A stretch of DNA of 64,000 nt from the NCBI GenBank assembly GCA_963805065.1, contig CAWDSS010000016.1, positions 65,084 through 129,083 of the forward strand. The letters are read 5' to 3'. A program made the position numbers and the translations under genes. Numbering within the stretch: the first letter of the stretch is position 1; every line of letters starts with the position of its first letter. Below the pieces are notes generated by a model, which saw nothing but the letters and a program-made list of their open reading frames with translations, made no database searches and was not told the origin of the DNA. The stretch comes from Candidatus Omnitrophota bacterium (GTDB lineage: Bacteria > Omnitrophota > Gorgyraeia > Gygaellales > Profunditerraquicolaceae). Shown here piece by piece: positions 46,179 through 55,000 of the stretch.

Positions 46179-46949
46179 ATGGAAAAAAGATTATATCCAA
46201 GAGTAGCTTCTGTATTACCCATAGAAATAAAATTTGAAGACACAGCCAACAATGTTTTATATAGCGGAAAAGGCCAAGTAGTTAATCTTAGCGAGACAGG
46301 CCTATGTATTATGCTGGATAAAAATTTACCCGCCTCATTACAGGGCTCTGTCTTATTTGACCCATCGTCAAAGTATCCCTCTTTTAAAACAAAGGCCAAA
46401 GTAATTTGGAGCAATAAATTGGAAGGGAAAAATAAATTCCATTGCGGAATCGATTTCCTAGATTTGGATACTAAAGAAATAAAAGTTTTTAAGCAAATAC
46501 TTTCAGATAACGGCAGGAAGTCATTTGTATTTGAGAAAACAGTTTACCTTGGCGATACCAATGCAGAAGGCAATGTTTATTTTGCAAAATATCTTGATTG
46601 GCAGGGGATGGCAAGAGAGGAATTTTATAAACAAAACTTTCCTGTCGAAGCGTTAAAATCAGGGCTTAAGCTTATTACGGTGCATGCCTCGATAGATTAT
46701 AAGCATGAAGCCTTCCTGTTTGATGAAATCTTAATCGCAGTTTTTGTTGCGAATGTTAAAAAAGCTAGTTTAGATTTGATATTTAATTACAGGAATAAAG
46801 CAACCAAACAGTTATTAGCCACAGGGAGCCAAACAATAGCTTTTGGCGACTTTAAGGGCAATTTAATACCGATACCCAAAGAAATCAAGGAAATCGTTAA
46901 GTATTTCTTATCAGAAGAAACTACTAACAAAGCAGGAGACAAATTATAG
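46179..46949 (+). CDS. PilZ domain fused to a 4HBT/YbgC-type hotdog thioesterase
   Basis: N-terminal RLYPR (RxxxR) and NLSETG (D/NxSxxG) PilZ motifs. C-terminal half: VYLGDTNAEGNVYFAKYLDWQGMAREEF (YbgC-like). Confidence 0.7.
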   Translation: MEKRLYPRVASVLPIEIKFEDTANNVLYSGKGQVVNLSETGLCIMLDKNLPASLQGSVLFDPSSKYPSFKTKAKVIWSNKLEGKNKFHCGIDFLDLDTKEIKVFKQILSDNGRKSFVFEKTVYLGDTNAEGNVYFAKYLDWQGMAREEFYKQNFPVEALKSGLKLITVHASIDYKHEAFLFDEILIAVFVANVKKASLDLIFNYRNKATKQLLATGSQTIAFGDFKGNLIPIPKEIKEIVKYFLSEETTNKAGDKL

Positions 46950-46951
46950 AA

Positions 46952-49114
46952 ATGAATTTTTATTCTATAGCGCCTCTTTTTGCTTCCCTACTTTTCTTAT
47001 TATTAGGAATATTTTGTTTATCCGTAAGCAAAATAAGAAGGGAGGTTATTTTATTTACCTCTCTGTGTTTTGTTACTTTTATCTGGCAATTCAGTTGGTT
47101 TATTTTGTTTAATACAACTTCCGACAAAATTGCCTCGCTAGTCATAAAGATTGGCTATACTGGTATAATATTCATCCCCATCGCTTATTTTCATTTCATG
47201 GTTAGTTTCTTAAAAATCGAAAATTACAAAGTAATCTTAAGGATATCTTATGCAATAGCATTTATTTTAGTAATTCTATTATGGACATCAAAATATTTTG
47301 TGAATGGCTATTATAAGTTCTATTGGGGTTATTATCCAAAGGCAGGCCTTTTACATCCCCTTCACTTGCTGCAAGTTTTCACGGTTACTATGTGGATGTT
47401 GTATTTGTTATGGAATAGTATAAATAAATTTAAGCTGGAACCGATGAAATATAACCAGCTAAAATACGTAATGTTAGGCATACTCTTTTATTTCCCCGCC
47501 GCCTCTGATTACCTTGTCAATTATGGCGTAGAGTTTTACCCCAAAGGTTTTATTTCCCTGTCTATTTTTGCCATAATTACTACATATGCCATTATACGTT
47601 ATCGCCTGATGGATTTAAAAATTGCGGTTACCAGGATCGGTATATTTATTTTAGTCTATACCTTACTGCTTGGTCTTCCTTTTGCCGTAGCTGTAGGGTT
47701 AAAGGGGTGGTTAGTTGATAAATTCGGGCCGGGATGGTGGATGTTTCCCTTAATATTAATGGCTGTCCTTGCTACCGTCGGGCCTTTTATTTACATTTTC
47801 CTGCAAAAAAAAGCAGAAGATAGGTTGTTACGGGAGCAAAGGAAATATCAGGAAACGCTTAAGCAGGCCTCGGTAGGCATGACTCGCATTAGAAACCTCG
47901 ATAGGCTGCTGGATTTGATAGCGCACATTGTGACAAAAACAGTAAAGATTTCCTACGCCGCGATATACCTTTACAATAAAGACACAAATGAATATGTCCT
48001 GCAAGTCAGCCGTGACAAAGGAAGAATACCAATACCCAAAGTAAATCCTATTAATCCGCTGGTTGCCTGGATTATGGTTGAACGTGAACCGCTAATTTAC
48101 GAAGAAGTAAAACGCAAAATGGAAGATGCCAAAGATGAAACTTGCAAGCTTCTTGAAGAAAATATGCGACTTTTAACTGCAACTGTGATTATTCCCAGTT
48201 TCCTGGAAGATAAATTTATCGGCTTCTTTGTCCTGGGTGACAAGCTTTCAGGGCAAATTTACACTCCGGATGACCTGAATGTTTTTCAGGTCCTCGCCAG
48301 CCAGGCTGCCCTTGCCATTGAAAACGCGCAATTTTATGAAGACGCAAAAGAGATGCAGGAGCAGATTGCGCAGGCAGAGAAAATGGCTACCATAGGAACC
48401 ATGGCTGATGGATTGTCCCATCAGATAAACAACCGTTTTTATGCGCTTTCTCTGATTGCGGGAGATACCATTGATACCATAAAAACTACAGATACTACCA
48501 AATGCACTCCTGAAGTAAGAACAATGATTGACGAGATTAACCATGCGCTTGAACGTATTCAGACTAATGTTATGCAGGGTGGAGAAGTGGTAAAAGGCAT
48601 TTTAAAATATTCCAAAAAAGGCAGCGGGCAATTTGAGGCGCTGGATTTGGACGCAATCATAGACAATACCTTAGAAATGGTTCAGTACAAGGTAAAGTTG
48701 TCGGAAATTGACCTTGTGCGCGATTATAAGGATATTCCCAAAATAAAGGGGAACATGACGCAATTACAGGAAGTGTTTTTCAATTTTATTGATAATGCCT
48801 ATGATGCGATTGTAGAGCGGCGTACGACACTAAAAGAAGATGGCTACCGCGGCAGGATTATTATTTCAGCCCGGCCAAAGGATAAATTCCTGGAAATTAT
48901 TGTTGAAGATAACGGTATGGGAGTAAAAGATTTCAACAATACAAAAATTTTCACGCCATTTTTTACCACTAAAACCTCATCCAATAAGGGCACAGGGCTA
49001 GGCCTTTACGTAATCAAGCGCATAATCACCGATACGCATAAAGGCACAATAAGCTTTGAATCCAAACACGGCATCGGCACCCGCTTCATTCTGGAACTTC
49101 TCACCGCCAAATAG
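46952..49114 (+). CDS. Sensor histidine kinase: N-terminal 7TM sensor (paralogue of 42471), GAF, HisKA-like, HATPase
   Basis: Polytopic N-terminus with KFYWGYY. GAF-like region (ISYAAIYLYNKDTNEYVL...FIGFFVLGDK). H-box MADGLSHQINN. Also DNGMGV...GTGLGLY. Confidence 0.85.
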   Translation: MNFYSIAPLFASLLFLLLGIFCLSVSKIRREVILFTSLCFVTFIWQFSWFILFNTTSDKIASLVIKIGYTGIIFIPIAYFHFMVSFLKIENYKVILRISYAIAFILVILLWTSKYFVNGYYKFYWGYYPKAGLLHPLHLLQVFTVTMWMLYLLWNSINKFKLEPMKYNQLKYVMLGILFYFPAASDYLVNYGVEFYPKGFISLSIFAIITTYAIIRYRLMDLKIAVTRIGIFILVYTLLLGLPFAVAVGLKGWLVDKFGPGWWMFPLILMAVLATVGPFIYIFLQKKAEDRLLREQRKYQETLKQASVGMTRIRNLDRLLDLIAHIVTKTVKISYAAIYLYNKDTNEYVLQVSRDKGRIPIPKVNPINPLVAWIMVEREPLIYEEVKRKMEDAKDETCKLLEENMRLLTATVIIPSFLEDKFIGFFVLGDKLSGQIYTPDDLNVFQVLASQAALAIENAQFYEDAKEMQEQIAQAEKMATIGTMADGLSHQINNRFYALSLIAGDTIDTIKTTDTTKCTPEVRTMIDEINHALERIQTNVMQGGEVVKGILKYSKKGSGQFEALDLDAIIDNTLEMVQYKVKLSEIDLVRDYKDIPKIKGNMTQLQEVFFNFIDNAYDAIVERRTTLKEDGYRGRIIISARPKDKFLEIIVEDNGMGVKDFNNTKIFTPFFTTKTSSNKGTGLGLYVIKRIITDTHKGTISFESKHGIGTRFILELLTAK

Positions 49115-49160
49115 GGTAAACCCTAAAATTATTATTGAAATTCGGAAATTGTGCTATAAT

Positions 49161-49270
49161 GAAGCCCACCCAGGCTAAAGCCCAGGGTTTCCCTCCTGTC
49201 GGAGGGCAAGCTTTGGGCGGAATGCCCAAGCGGCCAAGGCTTATCCGCGCCCTGAAAGGGCGCGGTTTTA
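49161..49270 (+). ncRNA. Candidate structured RNA (unclassified leader, riboswitch or sRNA) with its own promoter and intrinsic terminator
   Basis: Extended -10 TGCTATAAT (49152-60) with TTGAAA at 49135-40. A GC-rich segment with three hairpins: CCCTCC-TGTC-GGAGGG (49191-206), TTTGGGC-GGAAT-GCCCAAG (49212-30) and CCGCGCCC-TGAAA-GGGCGCGG (49245-65), followed by TTTTA. Confidence 0.5.
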
Positions 49271-49327
49271 TGCCGCGGGGTATGAAAAAAAACTATGGAT
49301 AACTTGTTATTAAATGGGGTGAAAAAT

Positions 49328-49711
49328 ATGGCGAAATTATTGATAGTGGACGATGAAGCTGATGTCCGTGAATTTGCGGCAAAATTCTTTAAACGGCGCA
49401 AAATCGAAGTGATGATTGCCGGTAGCGGTGAAGACGCCTTAACTGCCTTAGAAAAGTATAAGGCAGATTTAGTGCTTCTTGATATTAAGATGGAAGGCAT
49501 TGACGGCATAGAAACCTTAAGGCGCATAAGAGAAAGAGATAAAGATGCGCGCGTGATAATGGTCACCGGCAGAAAACCCGATGAATCAGGCTCGTTTGAA
49601 AAATGCCGTGAGTTAGGCGCCATAGATTATATTCACAAGCCCCTTGAACTGGATGAGCTGGAAAGAGTAGTGTTACGAGAGCTGTCCCAAGACTCCCCGA
49701 ATCAAACATAA
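49328..49711 (+). CDS. Single-domain CheY-like response regulator
   Basis: MAKLLIVDDE...DLVLLDIKMEG...MVTG...IHKP. The ORF-track start at 49295 is probably too early. Confidence 0.85.
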   Translation: MAKLLIVDDEADVREFAAKFFKRRKIEVMIAGSGEDALTALEKYKADLVLLDIKMEGIDGIETLRRIRERDKDARVIMVTGRKPDESGSFEKCRELGAIDYIHKPLELDELERVVLRELSQDSPNQT

Positions 49712-50877
49712 TGAAAATCGATTACAAGAAAGAGTTAGAAGGCGCATCAAAAACCATGATTTTGGTGCACGAGCCGCAAACCCTGATAAGGATGATTGTG
49801 CGCATGATTGTGCAAAGGGTAGAGGTTGAACATGCTGCTATCCTTTTGCATGACCAGTTCAAGGATTCTTATATCCTGACTGTTTCACGCGGCGCAGCAG
49901 GGTTAAAAATACCTCCGGGATTCGCGCGCATGGATTCTGATAACCCTCTGATTTATTTTTTCAGGGAAAATCTGGTCAAGCAAATTTTTAATGACGGCGC
50001 GGTTGTCTATGATGAAGCCTTAAAGATATTAAAAAGCAAGAAAATCAAGCCTGAACTGGAAGAGAAGCTAAAGAAAGCTTTGTATCAAATGGAAATATTT
50101 GAGGCAGTTATCTGCATCCCCAGTTACTTCAGGGATGAATTGCTGGGCCTGCTTCTGTTGGGCCGCAAAAAGAACAGGAAAAAGTTTGACCAGCATGAAT
50201 TGGATTTTTTTGTGGCCTTGGCTTCGGACGTTGCCATGGCCATCCGTAATGCCAGGTTGTTCTCAGAGCTTGAACAAGAGCTCCAAAAAAAGCAACGCCT
50301 TTTTGTGCATACTACAATTGCCTTGGCAGCTGCCATTGATGCCAAAGACCATTACACGCATGGCCACACATCAAGGGTAACCAATTTAAGCCTTGAGATT
50401 GCCAAGTACATGAAGGAAAAGAACAGGAATGTCTTTAATGATAAGTTTTTGGAGCATCTCCATATCGCGGGGCTCTTACATGACATAGGTAAAATCGGAA
50501 TCCCTGAGTCCATATTAAATAAAGACGGCCCTTTAAATGATACAGAATCTAAAAAAATGCAAGAGCATCCCTCTGTAGGAGCATCTATATTGCAGCCGAT
50601 AAAGGAACTAGAAGAGGCTATCCTGGGCGTAAAATACCATCATGAAAAATACGACGGCTCAGGCTACCCCGAGGGCCTTAAAGGCGAACAAATTCCTCTC
50701 ATTGCCGCTATTATTTCTGCAGCAGATACATTTGATGCCATGACTTCAGACAGGCCATACCGCCGCGCTTTAACCAAGGCAGAGGCAGTTGAAGAAATAA
50801 AACGTGTGAAAGGTAAGCAGCTTAGCCCTGAAGTCGCAGATGTAATAGTCGAGCTTTTTAAACTCCAGAAAATCTAA
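49711..50877 (+). CDS. GAF domain plus HD-GYP domain protein (putative c-di-GMP phosphodiesterase)
   Basis: HTSRVTNL, LLHDIGKIGIP, HHEKYDGSGYPEGLKG, ADTFDAMTSDRPYR. Confidence 0.85.
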   Translation: MKIDYKKELEGASKTMILVHEPQTLIRMIVRMIVQRVEVEHAAILLHDQFKDSYILTVSRGAAGLKIPPGFARMDSDNPLIYFFRENLVKQIFNDGAVVYDEALKILKSKKIKPELEEKLKKALYQMEIFEAVICIPSYFRDELLGLLLLGRKKNRKKFDQHELDFFVALASDVAMAIRNARLFSELEQELQKKQRLFVHTTIALAAAIDAKDHYTHGHTSRVTNLSLEIAKYMKEKNRNVFNDKFLEHLHIAGLLHDIGKIGIPESILNKDGPLNDTESKKMQEHPSVGASILQPIKELEEAILGVKYHHEKYDGSGYPEGLKGEQIPLIAAIISAADTFDAMTSDRPYRRALTKAEAVEEIKRVKGKQLSPEVADVIVELFKLQKI

Positions 50878-54223: not shown

Positions 54224-54730
54224 ATGTTAGCAATAATTTTGGTTTTTATGGGAATATTATTAAGATTTGCACCGCACGCGCCAAATTTCACGCCAGTTGC
54301 AGCGATTGCATTATTCGGCGGGGCATATTTAAATAAAAGAAGTTCTCTCATCGTCCCATTGGCCCTTATGATAATCAGCGATTATTTATTGGGGTTACAT
54401 AATGTGGTGTTTTTTACCTGGGGAGGGTTTGTCTTGGTTGCCTTGTTAGGTACGCGCCTTAAGGGCAATAAAGGCGTTGCCAGGACCATAACCTTTTCTT
54501 TGGCATCAGCAATTATATTTTATATCGTGTCAAACTTTGGCGTGTGGTTAATGGGTTGGTATCCTCCCACCTTAAATGGCCTTATTGATTGTTATGCCTT
54601 AGCAATTCCTTTCTTTAGGACCTTTACGCTGGCAACATTGATATATACTGCCGTATTTTTCGGCATTTATGAATTAGCCGCGCATTTTGTTAAACAGACA
54701 AAGTTCGCGCATGCTCTTTTAACAAAATAA
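54224..54730 (+). CDS. Small polytopic membrane protein of unknown function (a link to B12 uptake is suggested by adjacency only)
   Basis: 168 aa, ~5-6 hydrophobic helices, PNFTPVAAIALFGGAY motif, AGGAGG SD. Confidence 0.5.
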   Translation: MLAIILVFMGILLRFAPHAPNFTPVAAIALFGGAYLNKRSSLIVPLALMIISDYLLGLHNVVFFTWGGFVLVALLGTRLKGNKGVARTITFSLASAIIFYIVSNFGVWLMGWYPPTLNGLIDCYALAIPFFRTFTLATLIYTAVFFGIYELAAHFVKQTKFAHALLTK

Positions 54731-54740
54731 TTTTTTGTCT

Positions 54741-54885
54741 TATATGGACTAGGGAAGGCCGTAAAAGCGGCCACAGTCCCGCTGCTGTATAGAGGGACGA
54801 AATTCCGCAATAAGCCACTGGTGTTTTAGCCGGGAAGGCGCGGAAGAGTAGGATGATCTCTTGAGTCAGAAGACCTAGGCATATA
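54741..54885 (+). promoter_or_regulatory. Cobalamin (B12) riboswitch aptamer
   Basis: P1 TATATG/CATATA; AGGGAAGGCCGTAAAAGCGGCCACAGTCCCGCTGCTGT; GCCACTG; GGGAAGGC; B12-box-like GAGTCAGAAGACCTAGGC. Confidence 0.85.
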
Positions 54886-54938
54886 ATCAAAAATATAATA
54901 ACCATTTGGTCCGTGGACAGGCCAAGGGCTAAGAGGGT

Positions 54939-54976
54939 AACCCTTGATGTCAATTGTGATATCAAGGGTTTTTTAT
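54939..54976 (+). terminator. Intrinsic terminator acting as the riboswitch expression platform
   Basis: AACCCTTGAT (54939-48) pairs with ATCAAGGGTT (54961-70), followed by TTTTATTTT. Confidence 0.8.
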
Positions 54977-55000
54977 TTTAACGTCCGGAATGGAGAAAAG

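What the first reader, a model, noticed from the sequence alone, without database searches (positions are those of the whole stretch)
49135..49270. Unclassified GC-rich structured RNA with its own promoter and terminator, upstream of the receiver/HD-GYP genes
In the 213-nt gap after the second kinase there is an extended -10 promoter (TGCTATAAT at 49152-60). It is followed by ~100 nt that are visibly more GC-rich than the surroundings and fold into three clean hairpins: CCCTCC-TGTC-GGAGGG, TTTGGGC-GGAAT-GCCCAAG, and CCGCGCCC-TGAAA-GGGCGCGG followed by TTTTA. The last is a textbook intrinsic terminator 58 nt before the receiver ATG. That is the layout of a transcription-attenuating riboswitch, a protein-binding leader or a small RNA. 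I could not match it to any riboswitch class I know. AAGCGGCCAAGGC faintly resembles the SRP RNA helix-8 strand AAGCAGCCAAGGC, but the rest does not fold like SRP RNA.
Basis: partly seen in the sequence, partly recalled or inferred. Interest (0 to 1): 0.55.

Follow-up and report, generated by a model that had tools for sequence, protein, structure and literature searches.

The report
Inserted GC-rich hairpin element, probably mobile
The GC-rich structured stretch is a roughly 123-base insertion, probably a small mobile or repeat-type element, of which one clear and two probable relatives sit at unrelated sites in other Omnitrophota genomes; here it landed between a conserved operon promoter and the receiver gene, so it is probably not a dedicated riboswitch.

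Summary
The described sequence is real. The 213-nt gap, TGCTATAAT, the GC peak (66%, the highest in the 64 kb) and a strong terminator-like hairpin are all present. The interpretation needs revising in four ways.

1. No Rfam family matches.
2. TGCTATAAT is the ancestral promoter of the receiver/HD-GYP operon. It is kept in five relatives whose receiver is 77-85% identical (one has TGATATAAT), and all of them lack the GC-rich block. About 35 further orthologous Omnitrophota loci lack it too.
3. The block (49161-49283) is therefore a lineage-specific insertion just after the -10 box.
4. It has relatives at non-orthologous sites:
   - a clear ~84-90% identical copy that interrupts an acetate kinase gene (L104);
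   - a probable diverged 243-nt copy beside a ParE toxin gene (L033);
   - a possible truncated copy at a contig end (L083).

Boundaries are sharp, all left flanks end in AT, and hairpins are kept through compensatory changes. No antiterminator competes with the terminator hairpin.

Best reading: a MITE/ERIC/PATE-like structured element co-transcribed as the operon leader, where it probably causes partial, unregulated termination. More than one copy per genome was not shown.

The parts
49152..49160 (+). Extended -10 promoter TGCTATAAT of the receiver/HD-GYP operon. It is ancestral and not part of the element.
   Evidence: TGCTATAAT or TGGTATAAT (TGATATAAT in L088) sits 28-63 nt upstream of the receiver start in relatives L082, L083, L084, L087 and L088, all of which lack the insert. 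Function is inferred from consensus only.
49161..49283 (+). Inserted element, GAAGCCC...GGGGTAT, about 123 nt. Similarity to the L104 copy runs from 49158 to 49288.
   Evidence: The alignment with relatives shows one gap block exactly here. It is 84% identical to L104:1577-1713 in the MAFFT alignment (higher, ~90% by eye, once the -1/+1 indels are placed), while the 40-nt flanks are 7/40 identical. A covariance model built from the window alone finds L104 at E = 5e-26.
49169..49186 (+). 5' hairpin of the family (CCCAGGC-TAAA-GCCCAGG). It is degenerate in this copy, with two A.C mismatches.
   Evidence: It is a perfect 7-bp stem in L104 (CCCGGGC/GCCCGGG), L083 (CTCGGGC/GCCCGAG) and L033 (CACGGGC/GCCCGTG). 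One pair occurs as C-G, U-A and A-U.
49180..49218 (+). 17-bp helix that dominates the predicted fold of this copy.
   Evidence: Pair probability is 0.98. In L104 the tip stem becomes CCCTGCC/GGCAGGG, a compensatory change, with a longer loop. In L033 this arm is replaced by a ~136-nt AT-rich hairpin.
49203..49233 (+). 31-nt block identical to L104 (AGGGCAAGCTTTGGGCGGAATGCCCAAGCGG).
   Evidence: The motif GGGCGGAAT..AAGCG also occurs in L033. Hairpin 2 itself has probability 0.02.
49222..49283 (+). 3' domain: outer helix ATGCCC..GCGGC (49222-49234) pairing with GCCGC.GGGTAT (49272-49283), enclosing the terminator-like hairpin.
   Evidence: It appears in the MFE of the window and L104 copies. 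100% of its cells are paired, with one C-G to U.G change. L033 has ATCC.CC/GG.GGAT at the same place.
49245..49270 (+). Terminator-like hairpin CCGCGCCC-TGAAA-GGGCGCGG followed by TTTTA.
   Evidence: -17.7 kcal/mol. There is a compensatory G-C to A-U change in L104 (CCGCACCC/GGGTGCGG). The U run is only 4 here and is degenerate in L033 (TATTCTG). Termination itself was not tested.
49316..49711 (+). Context: Shine-Dalgarno GGGGTGA (49316-49322) and the receiver gene (ATG 49328), followed by the GAF-HD-GYP gene at 49711-50877.
   Evidence: Pfam Response_reg 4.7e-28 and HD_5 3.3e-37. The SD GAGGTGA is conserved in relatives.

Best explanation
The feature is one copy of a small, non-coding, hairpin-rich element, about 123 nt long and 60% GC in a 42% GC genome, that is found scattered across Omnitrophota genomes. 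It behaves like a miniature mobile or repeat element (MITE, ERIC/Correia-like, or an IS200/IS605-type PATE).

In this genome it inserted right after the AT of the -10 box of the pre-existing receiver/HD-GYP operon promoter. Transcripts from that promoter therefore now start inside the element and carry it as a ~160-nt leader.

The element's 3' hairpin followed by UUUU resembles an intrinsic terminator and lies in the only path to the operon. The most likely effect is partial, unregulated premature termination, and possibly a stabilising 5' structure.

Shown: the insertion, its boundaries, one clear relative elsewhere (L104) and two weaker ones (L033, L083), conservation of the helices, and non-coding evolution.
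Inferred: mobility, the mechanism of mobilisation, transcription, and any effect on expression.
For: 1. It is an insertion. Relatives with 77-85% identical receivers keep the TGnTATAAT promoter, the A-rich leader and the SD, but lack the GC block. Kinase-receiver gaps are only 53-72 nt in L001, L002, L006, L012 and L015. nhmmer and covariance-model searches of the Omnitrophota loci find it at no orthologous site.

2. It has relatives at unrelated sites.
   - L104:1577-1713 is 84% identical in the MAFFT alignment, against random flanks of 7/40. It breaks an acetate kinase gene after codon ~53, whereas relatives have an intact ackA directly after pta.
   - L033:3302-3544(-) matches at E = 1.6e-4 and lies after a ParE toxin gene.
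   - L083:3339-3372 starts at the receiver stop codon and is cut by the contig end.

3. The same 5' boundary recurs in independent events. All four left flanks end in AT, and all three complete copies end in GTAT or GGAT.

4. The structure is maintained.
   - On the model-fitted alignment (which leans towards the structure) 98.8% of cells are paired and two pairs are compensatory, against at most 51% and none when partners are slid. The shuffle control was not exceeded (132 of 500).
   - The 5' hairpin has C-G, U-A and A-U at one pair.

5. It is not coding.
   - Substitutions fall mostly on codon positions 1 and 2, there are -1/+1 indels, and the frame is lost in L033.
   - There is no protein family. 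The only significant hit of the translation is the L104 copy read through by a gene caller.

6. The same intergenic spaces hold other insertions in relatives: IS200-like Y1 transposase genes, AbiE, 23S-IVP ORFs and palindromes.

7. It has no riboswitch-type switch.
Against: - More than one copy in a single genome was not shown. There is one copy in the window plus 4.8 kb beyond it, even with filters off.
- A k=31 Logan contig runs through the element without a break.
- There are no terminal inverted repeats, and a target duplication is uncertain (AT only).
- No match was found in IMG/VR or JGI metagenomes with exact or back-translated patterns.
- The L033 and L083 matches are weak by sequence alone (nhmmer E = 0.09 for L033, nothing for L083). 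The model that scores them well includes L083.
- All four copies point the same way as their flanking genes, and each lies upstream of a gene. That also fits an RNA-level regulatory role.
- Only HD-GYP neighbourhoods were sampled, apart from L104.
Confidence: 0.55

Rival explanations
1. It belongs to a new family of cis-regulatory leader RNAs (a riboswitch or a protein-dependent attenuator). Members sit upstream of signalling genes and control them through the 3' terminator hairpin.
For: - The helices are conserved and covary between copies.
- There is a three-way-junction-like 5' domain with a variable arm. It is the MFE in L033 and within 0.4 kcal/mol of the MFE in L104.
- All four copies are co-oriented with a downstream gene: receiver/HD-GYP here, a 7TM kinase in L033, presumably HD-GYP in L083.
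- This genome uses terminator-based riboswitch control, as at the cobalamin riboswitch.
- A relative carries a c-di-GMP-I-GGC riboswitch in the same gap.
Against: - It is absent from all orthologous loci.
- No antiterminator exists: the best fold without the terminator is 15 kcal/mol worse.
- The window copy has two mismatches in the family's best-conserved hairpin, and its junction fold is 7.6 kcal/mol above the MFE.
- The U tract is not conserved in L033.
- The L104 copy abuts codon ~53 of a broken gene.
- No promoter is conserved upstream of the copies.
- The gene-context association is biased by how the loci were collected.
Confidence: 0.15
2. It is an independent small RNA gene of about 105 nt, running from the promoter to the terminator and acting in trans.
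For: An extended -10 box is followed by a structured RNA and a hairpin+UUUU. The element is conserved in other genomes.
Against: - The promoter belongs to the operon and predates the element.
- The predicted start falls inside the element's 5' end, which is my inference from the -10 position.
- The other copies have no conserved promoter.
- One copy lies inside a coding region.
- No target search was possible.
Confidence: 0.08
3. It is a one-off patch of foreign or duplicated DNA with no mobility and no function. Its hairpins are incidental to GC-rich palindromic sequence.
For: There is a single copy in about 69 kb of this genome. Nothing was found in the collection scans. The minus strand folds equally well.
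Against: A copy with the same boundaries exists in another genome at an unrelated site, with compensatory changes in two stems. Two further probable copies exist.
Confidence: 0.08
4. It encodes a small protein or leader peptide: the 47-aa ORF from ATG 49159 to TAA 49302, or 26 aa from ATG 49222. Translation through the terminator would control read-through, as in pyrBI-type attenuation.
For: One frame is open across the whole element. GGAGGG lies 15 nt upstream of ATG 49222.
Against: - ATG 49159 lies inside the -10 box and has no SD.
- An open frame of this length is expected about 20% of the time at 60% GC (my estimate).
- Substitutions against L104 are mostly non-synonymous with -1/+1 indels, and the frame is lost in L033.
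- No protein homologues exist other than the read-through ORF of L104.
Confidence: 0.02

Closest known systems
ERIC, Correia/NEMIS, RUP and BOX-type small intergenic repeat elements (MITE-like). This comparison rests on general knowledge.
   Same: The size is about 100-250 nt. The element is strongly hairpin-forming and sits in transcribed intergenic DNA. It is present or absent between close relatives. Size variants arise from an internal insertion at a fixed arm (243 nt in L033 against ~130 nt). Once co-transcribed it could act on termination or mRNA stability.
   Different: No terminal inverted repeats. No demonstrated multi-copy state in any one genome. No sequence similarity to those families. 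The host phylum is Omnitrophota. One clear copy lies inside a coding gene.
IS200/IS605-family ends and their transposase-less derivatives (PATEs), or REP elements mobilised by RAYT Y1 transposases. This comparison rests on general knowledge.
   Same: No inverted terminal repeats. There are GC-rich subterminal hairpins near both ends. Every left flank ends in the same dinucleotide (AT) and the element also ends in AT, as expected for insertion 3' of a short target without duplication. IS200-like Y1 transposase genes occur next to the same operon in three relatives. In IS200 the left end also carries a terminator-like hairpin.
   Different: No Y1 transposase was found in the 64-kb window. The two hairpins resemble each other only in L033. 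The gene that follows the L104 copy is unknown because the contig ends. None of this was tested biochemically.
Terminator-based riboswitches, including c-di-GMP-I (GEMM-I)
   Same: A structured leader ending in a hairpin+U run upstream of c-di-GMP genes. A real c-di-GMP-I-GGC riboswitch occupies the same gap in relative L009.
   Different: No covariance-model match even at E<=10. No antiterminator. Not conserved at orthologous loci.
SRP RNA helix 8
   Same: AAGCGGCCAAGGC differs by one base from AAGCAGCCAAGGC.
   Different: No Rfam SRP hit. The opposite strand pairs fully instead of forming the symmetric loop. CCAAGGC is not conserved in L104 (TCAATCT). The 17-mer occurs by chance in coding DNA as AQAAKA.

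Membership tests
Any Rfam 15 family (including c-di-GMP-I/II, SRP RNA, preQ1-I, HEARO) | Covariance-model score at or above the family's gathering score | tested here: not met
   Nothing at the element at gathering threshold. The best sub-threshold hits are preQ1 at 22.3 bits against 39 and RAGATH-10 at 19.4 against 41.2. The L104 copy also has none.
Transcriptional riboswitch or attenuator | Conserved upstream of orthologous genes in related genomes | tested here: not met
   Absent in L082-L088 and in about 35 Omnitrophota loci.
Transcriptional riboswitch or attenuator | A mutually exclusive antiterminator competing with the terminator | tested here: not met
   Terminator P = 0.997. The best fold without it is 15 kcal/mol worse. 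Enforcing GGGCG:CGCCC costs 18 kcal/mol.
Transcriptional riboswitch or attenuator | Ligand or protein binding that changes read-through | not testable with these tools
   Needs in-line probing or in vitro transcription.
Intrinsic terminator | GC-rich hairpin directly followed by a U run | tested here: met
   9 bp, 8 of them G-C, then TTTTATG. The U run is shorter than in native terminators of the window (T6). Activity was not tested.
MITE or small repeat element | Presence/absence polymorphism with sharp boundaries at an otherwise conserved site | tested here: met
   A single gap block between the conserved -10 box and the leader. Flank identity to L104 is 7/40 on each side.
MITE or small repeat element | Related copies at non-orthologous sites | tested here: met
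   L104 inside ackA is clear. L033 beside parE is probable. L083 after the receiver gene is possible and truncated.
MITE or small repeat element | Several copies within one genome | tested here: inconclusive
   One copy in 64 kb plus 4.8 kb. The L083 contig ends 34 nt into its copy, but the Logan contig L081 passes through the window's copy.
MITE or small repeat element | Terminal inverted repeats and a target-site duplication | tested here: not met
   The ends GAAGCCCACCC and CCGCGGGGTAT are not inverted repeats. Only AT recurs on both sides, which may be the target plus the element's own end.
IS200/IS605-type PATE or REP | Subterminal hairpins without inverted repeats, and insertion next to a fixed short motif | tested here: inconclusive
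   Hairpins lie 8 nt from the 5' end and 18 nt from the 3' end. The left flanks are TAAT, AAAT, AAAT and ACAT. Four sites are too few.
IS200/IS605-type PATE or REP | A cognate Y1 (HUH) transposase in the same genome | tested here: inconclusive
   Y1_Tnp genes occur in L083, L003 and L088. tblastn finds none in the window. The whole genome was not available.
tRNA or tRNA-like | Cloverleaf detected by ARAGORN or the Rfam tRNA model | tested here: not met
   Only tRNA-Thr and tRNA-Trp, at 3.7-4.1 kb.

The most novel reading that the evidence does not exclude
The four copies define a previously undescribed structured RNA family of Omnitrophota. It would have a three-way-junction 5' domain with a UAAA-capped hairpin, a variable arm, the conserved GGGCGGAAU...AAGCG core, and a 3' hairpin nested in an outer helix. 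It would act in cis on downstream signalling genes, or would be the functional RNA of a new kind of mobile element (for example a guide or scaffold RNA for its own transposition).
Probability: 0.12. Interest if true: 0.55.

Novelty: new member of a known kind. Interest (0 to 1): 0.3.

Why it matters
As a riboswitch candidate it does not hold up, which saves a fruitless ligand hunt. What remains is a modest but concrete result. It is a new small structured element in a poorly studied, uncultured phylum, caught in one genome exactly between a promoter's -10 box and its gene.

That makes it a natural experiment. A terminator-like hairpin has been dropped into the only transcription path of a c-di-GMP phosphodiesterase operon whose genes are still intact. 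It could show how such insertions rewire signalling-gene expression.

It also illustrates that the intergenic spaces of this kinase/receiver/HD-GYP cluster are insertion hot spots across Omnitrophota.

Tried and rejected
- **Rfam.** Searched at gathering score and at E<=10. Only chance-level preQ1 and RAGATH-10 hits appeared. The preQ1-like A-rich tail with CTATGGA is partly ancestral leader sequence (CTATGGA recurs in L082).
- **SRP RNA.** No model hit. The 13-mer is not conserved in L104, and the 17-mer hits in IMG/VR are all coding AQAAKA.
- **tRNA-like reading of GCCCAAGCGGCCAAGGC.** ARAGORN is negative.
- **rRNA or other conserved fragment, plasmid or phage origin.** blastn against E. coli genomes, plasmids and phages found nothing.
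- **Exact and gapped DNA patterns in IMG/VR and JGI metagenomes.** Nothing, or only chance hits.
- **Six back-translated patterns tiling the element.** 600 pattern matches in the metagenomes, none confirmed.
- **Small-protein reading.** No word-sharing homologue. The exhaustive phmmer search found only P0121, which turned out to be the homologous DNA element read through from ackA. That hit is what opened the case.
- **Second copy in the window.** nhmmer, blastn-short, covariance models with filters off, and 4.8 kb beyond the window all found none.
- **Antiterminator GGGCG:CGCCC.** It is 18 kcal/mol too weak.
- **Strand assignment from G.U pairs.** Inconclusive, because substitutions favour each strand about equally.
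- **Second GGCTAAAGCC site in L033.** It is coding sequence of an antitoxin.
- **Literature search.** It gave nothing relevant on Omnitrophota RNA elements.

Full report
**1. What is in the sequence**

The window comes from a Candidatus Omnitrophota genome. HD-GYP orthologues at up to 72% identity all come from Omnitrophota MAGs or a few MAGs filed under other phylum labels.

The local gene order is as follows:
- PilZ-thioesterase;
- a 7TM-GAF histidine kinase (46952-49114);
- a 213-nt gap;
- a stand-alone receiver (ATG 49328);
- a GAF-HD-GYP protein (49711-50877);
- glycosyltransferase and lipid A acyltransferase genes.

This includes TGCTATAAT at 49152-49160, a GC-rich block, CCCTCC-TGTC-GGAGGG, TTTGGGC-GGAAT-GCCCAAG, and CCGCGCCC-TGAAA-GGGCGCGG followed by TTTTA ending 58 nt before the ATG.

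- The 100-nt window starting at 49164 has 66% GC, the highest value in the 64 kb (mean 42%, sd 6.4%).
- The last hairpin has 9 pairs, 8 of them G-C. At -17.7 kcal/mol it is the second most stable terminator-like hairpin in the window.
- The region folds better than dinucleotide shuffles (z = -3.9). The reverse complement folds equally well (z = -4.6).

**2. Where the description needs correcting**

At equilibrium the middle hairpin has probability 0.02. Its 5' strand extends hairpin 1 into a 17-bp helix at 49180-49218 (P 0.98). That helix would also form first during transcription.

When the conserved tail CCGCGGGGTAT is included, ATGCCC..GCGGC (49222-49234) pairs with GCCGC.GGGTAT (49272-49283). 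The 'terminator' is then nested inside a larger helix.

No alternative pairing can compete with the terminator hairpin:
- Its probability is 0.997.
- The best fold without it is 15 kcal/mol less stable.
- The only candidate antiterminator, GGGCG:CGCCC, costs 18 kcal/mol.

**3. It is not a known RNA**

Rfam 15 finds only a cobalamin riboswitch (54720-54896) and two tRNAs in the window.

A permissive search of the gap gives only sub-threshold hits: preQ1 at 22.3 bits against 39 and RAGATH-10 at 19.4 against 41.2. ARAGORN finds no tRNA there.

The SRP-like 13-mer is not conserved in the homologous copy found later. The 17-mer around it occurs by chance in coding DNA.

**4. It is an insertion, and the promoter is not its own**

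I collected 80 loci encoding relatives of the HD-GYP protein and then the closest receiver homologues.

- Five relatives with receivers 77-85% identical (L082, L083, L084, L087, L088) carry TGCTATAAT or TGGTATAAT (TGATATAAT in L088) 28-63 nt upstream of the receiver start.
- In all five this is followed by an A-rich leader and the GAGGTGA Shine-Dalgarno.
- None has the GC-rich block. The multiple alignment shows it as one clean gap block starting right after TATAAT.
- In L001, L002, L006, L012 and L015 the kinase-receiver gap is only 53-72 nt.
- nhmmer and covariance models find the element at no orthologous site.

The extended -10 box is therefore the ancestral operon promoter. The element arrived between it and the gene. 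A start about 7 nt after the -10 box (my inference) would fall inside the element's first bases.

**5. Searching for relatives**

The following searches found nothing real:
- blastn against plasmids, phages and E. coli genomes;
- exact and gapped patterns in IMG/VR and JGI metagenomes;
- six back-translated patterns tiling the element.

One frame is open across the whole element: 47 aa from ATG 49159, inside the -10 box. I therefore used its translation as a proxy query.
- A word-based search found nothing.
- An exhaustive phmmer search of 1.84 billion representatives found P0121 (E = 2.4e-5, 61% identity over 44 residues).

P0121 consists of the first ~54 residues of an acetate kinase fused to a translation of a homologous DNA element. 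Its contig is L104 (ENA ERZ27280021).

- L104:1577-1713 is 84% identical to window 49158-49288 in the MAFFT alignment. It reaches ~90% by my eye once the two 1-nt indels around the 3' hairpin are placed.
- It includes a 31-nt identical block, AGGGCAAGCTTTGGGCGGAATGCCCAAGCGG.
- The 40-nt flanks are only 7/40 identical on each side.
- L104 is also from Omnitrophota. In its relatives pta is followed directly by an intact ackA.
- In L104 the ackA reading frame matches the orthologue for 52 residues, stops at the element's 5' boundary, and does not resume in the remaining 125 nt.
- Those 125 nt hold another GC-rich palindrome and an SD plus ATG (MQKKQKKKK...) before the contig ends.

**6. Two further probable copies**

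A covariance model built from the window copy alone finds L104 at E = 5e-26. It also gives a weak truncated match at the very end of contig L083 (E = 0.57), starting at the receiver's stop codon: AATAAAGTTCCTCGGGCTAAAGCCCGAGGCCTCT.

A model built from these three then finds L033:3302-3544 on the minus strand (E = 1.6e-4). This is a 243-nt version in which the central hairpin is replaced by a ~136-nt AT-rich hairpin. It lies 21 nt after a ParE-family toxin gene and upstream of a 7TM kinase gene.

By sequence alone L033 is marginal: nhmmer gives E = 0.09 for the 5' part and 2.4 for the collinear 3' part. I rate L104 as certain, L033 as probable and L083 as possible.

None was found in the window with filters off, or in 4.8 kb beyond its end.

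**7. Shared anatomy**

All copies begin (A/C)AT|GRAGCCC, or AAT|AAAGTTC in L083. The three complete ones end in GGGGTAT| or GGCGGAT|. Every left flank therefore ends in AT, and so does the element.

The 5' hairpin is a perfect 7-bp stem with a TAAA loop in three copies. One pair occurs as C-G (L104), U-A (L083) and A-U (L033). The window copy has two A.C mismatches there.

Between the window and L104:
- Hairpin 1 changes from CCCTCC/GGAGGG to CCCTGCC/GGCAGGG.
- The 3' hairpin changes from CCGCGCCC/GGGCGCGG to CCGCACCC/GGGTGCGG.
- 98.8% of cells are paired and two pairs are compensatory, against at most 51% and none when partners are slid. Caveats: the alignment was fitted to the model, only two full sequences enter it, and the shuffle control was not exceeded (132 of 500).

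A three-way junction is a possible common fold: GCCCA/TGGGC closing the 5' hairpin and the variable arm. It is the MFE in L033, within 0.4 kcal/mol of the MFE in L104, and 7.6 kcal/mol above the MFE in the window copy.

The element is not coding:
- Differences fall mostly on codon positions 1 and 2.
- There are -1/+1 indels.
- L033 loses the frame.

G.U evidence does not settle which strand matters. The U run after the 3' hairpin is TTTTAT here, TTTTGT in L104, and TATTCT in L033.

**8. Interpretation**

Several observations are the signature of a small mobile or repeat-type element rather than a gene-specific regulator:
- the same unit, with the same boundaries, at unrelated sites in different genomes;
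- in the clearest case, a position inside a coding gene;
- absence from orthologous sites in close relatives;
- strong hairpins;
- a size variant produced by an insertion in one arm.

The absence of inverted repeats, the subterminal hairpins and the constant AT at the left flank and the right end recall IS200/IS605-type ends and their transposase-less derivatives. IS200-like Y1 transposase genes lie next to this same operon in L083, L003 and L088. This link is circumstantial: tblastn finds no such gene in the window.

The same intergenic spaces in relatives hold other insertions:
- a c-di-GMP-I-GGC riboswitch cassette (L009);
- 23S-IVP-like ORFs;
- an AbiE pair;
- assorted palindromes.

In this genome the consequence is that every transcript reaching the intact receiver and HD-GYP genes must pass a stable hairpin plus UUUU. 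Partial, unregulated termination is the simplest expectation. Native terminators in the window have six or more Ts, so termination here is probably incomplete.

**9. Limits**

- More than one copy per genome was not shown. A k=31 Logan contig crosses the window's copy without a break, whereas the L083 contig ends inside its copy.
- The loci available are nearly all HD-GYP neighbourhoods. The apparent association with signalling genes, and the 4-of-4 co-orientation with flanking genes, cannot be evaluated.
- For these reasons a cis-regulatory RNA family remains a live minority reading (about 0.15).

Noticed in passing
window 54720-54896 and 54941-54978: Cobalamin riboswitch (80.8 bits) followed by a canonical terminator (12-bp stem, T6). 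This shows that the genome uses terminator-based riboswitch control.
   Followed up: partly
L009:2994-3069: A c-di-GMP-I-GGC riboswitch (59.1 bits, gathering score 59), two terminator-like hairpins and two small ORFs form a 718-nt insert in the kinase-receiver gap of a relative.
   Followed up: partly
L022, L034 (kinase-receiver gap); L106-L115 (receiver/HD-GYP gap and kinase-receiver gap): The same intergenic spaces carry other insertions in relatives. L022 and L034 have a ~130-aa ORF in the kinase-receiver gap flanked by 'catagac' repeats, which I take to be a 23S-IVP-like four-helix-bundle protein (not checked by Pfam). L106-L115 have a Pfam 23S_rRNA_IVP ORF between receiver and HD-GYP. L106-L115 also have an AbiEii gene with an upstream partner ORF between kinase and receiver. 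These spaces are insertion hot spots.
   Followed up: no
L083:2303-2794; L003:278-724; L088:8-226: IS200-like Y1 transposase genes lie just upstream of the receiver gene in L083 and L088, and ~2.3 kb upstream of it in L003. None is present in the window.
   Followed up: partly
L104:1306-1415: A ~110-nt AT-rich insert is bounded by the inverted repeat CCCCGCACCTTCT.../...AGAAGGTGCGGGG between pta and ackA. Relatives have only 2 nt between the genes. It looks like a second, different MITE.
   Followed up: no
L104:1719-1838: After the element copy comes another GC-rich palindrome, then GGAGG and an ATG at 1803 opening an ORF MQKKQKKKK that runs off the contig. This could be the cargo or transposase gene of a larger element.
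   Followed up: no
window 49159-49302: A 47-codon frame is open across the whole element, starting at an ATG inside the -10 box. It is not under coding selection, but its translation was the handle that found the homologous copy.
   Followed up: yes
window 49164-49171 with 49317-49332: In the fold of the full leader, the element's 5' end GCC-CACCC is predicted to pair with the receiver's SD (GGGUG) and start-codon region. It is only 5+3 bp and may be chance.
   Followed up: no
window 46179-46949: A PilZ-thioesterase fusion gene lies between the shikimate-DH-like gene and the kinase. The closest relative with a long contig (L082) lacks it.
   Followed up: no
L033:3566-4108 (minus strand): A Phd/YefM-like antitoxin and a ParE-family toxin lie immediately upstream of the L033 copy of the element.
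   Followed up: partly
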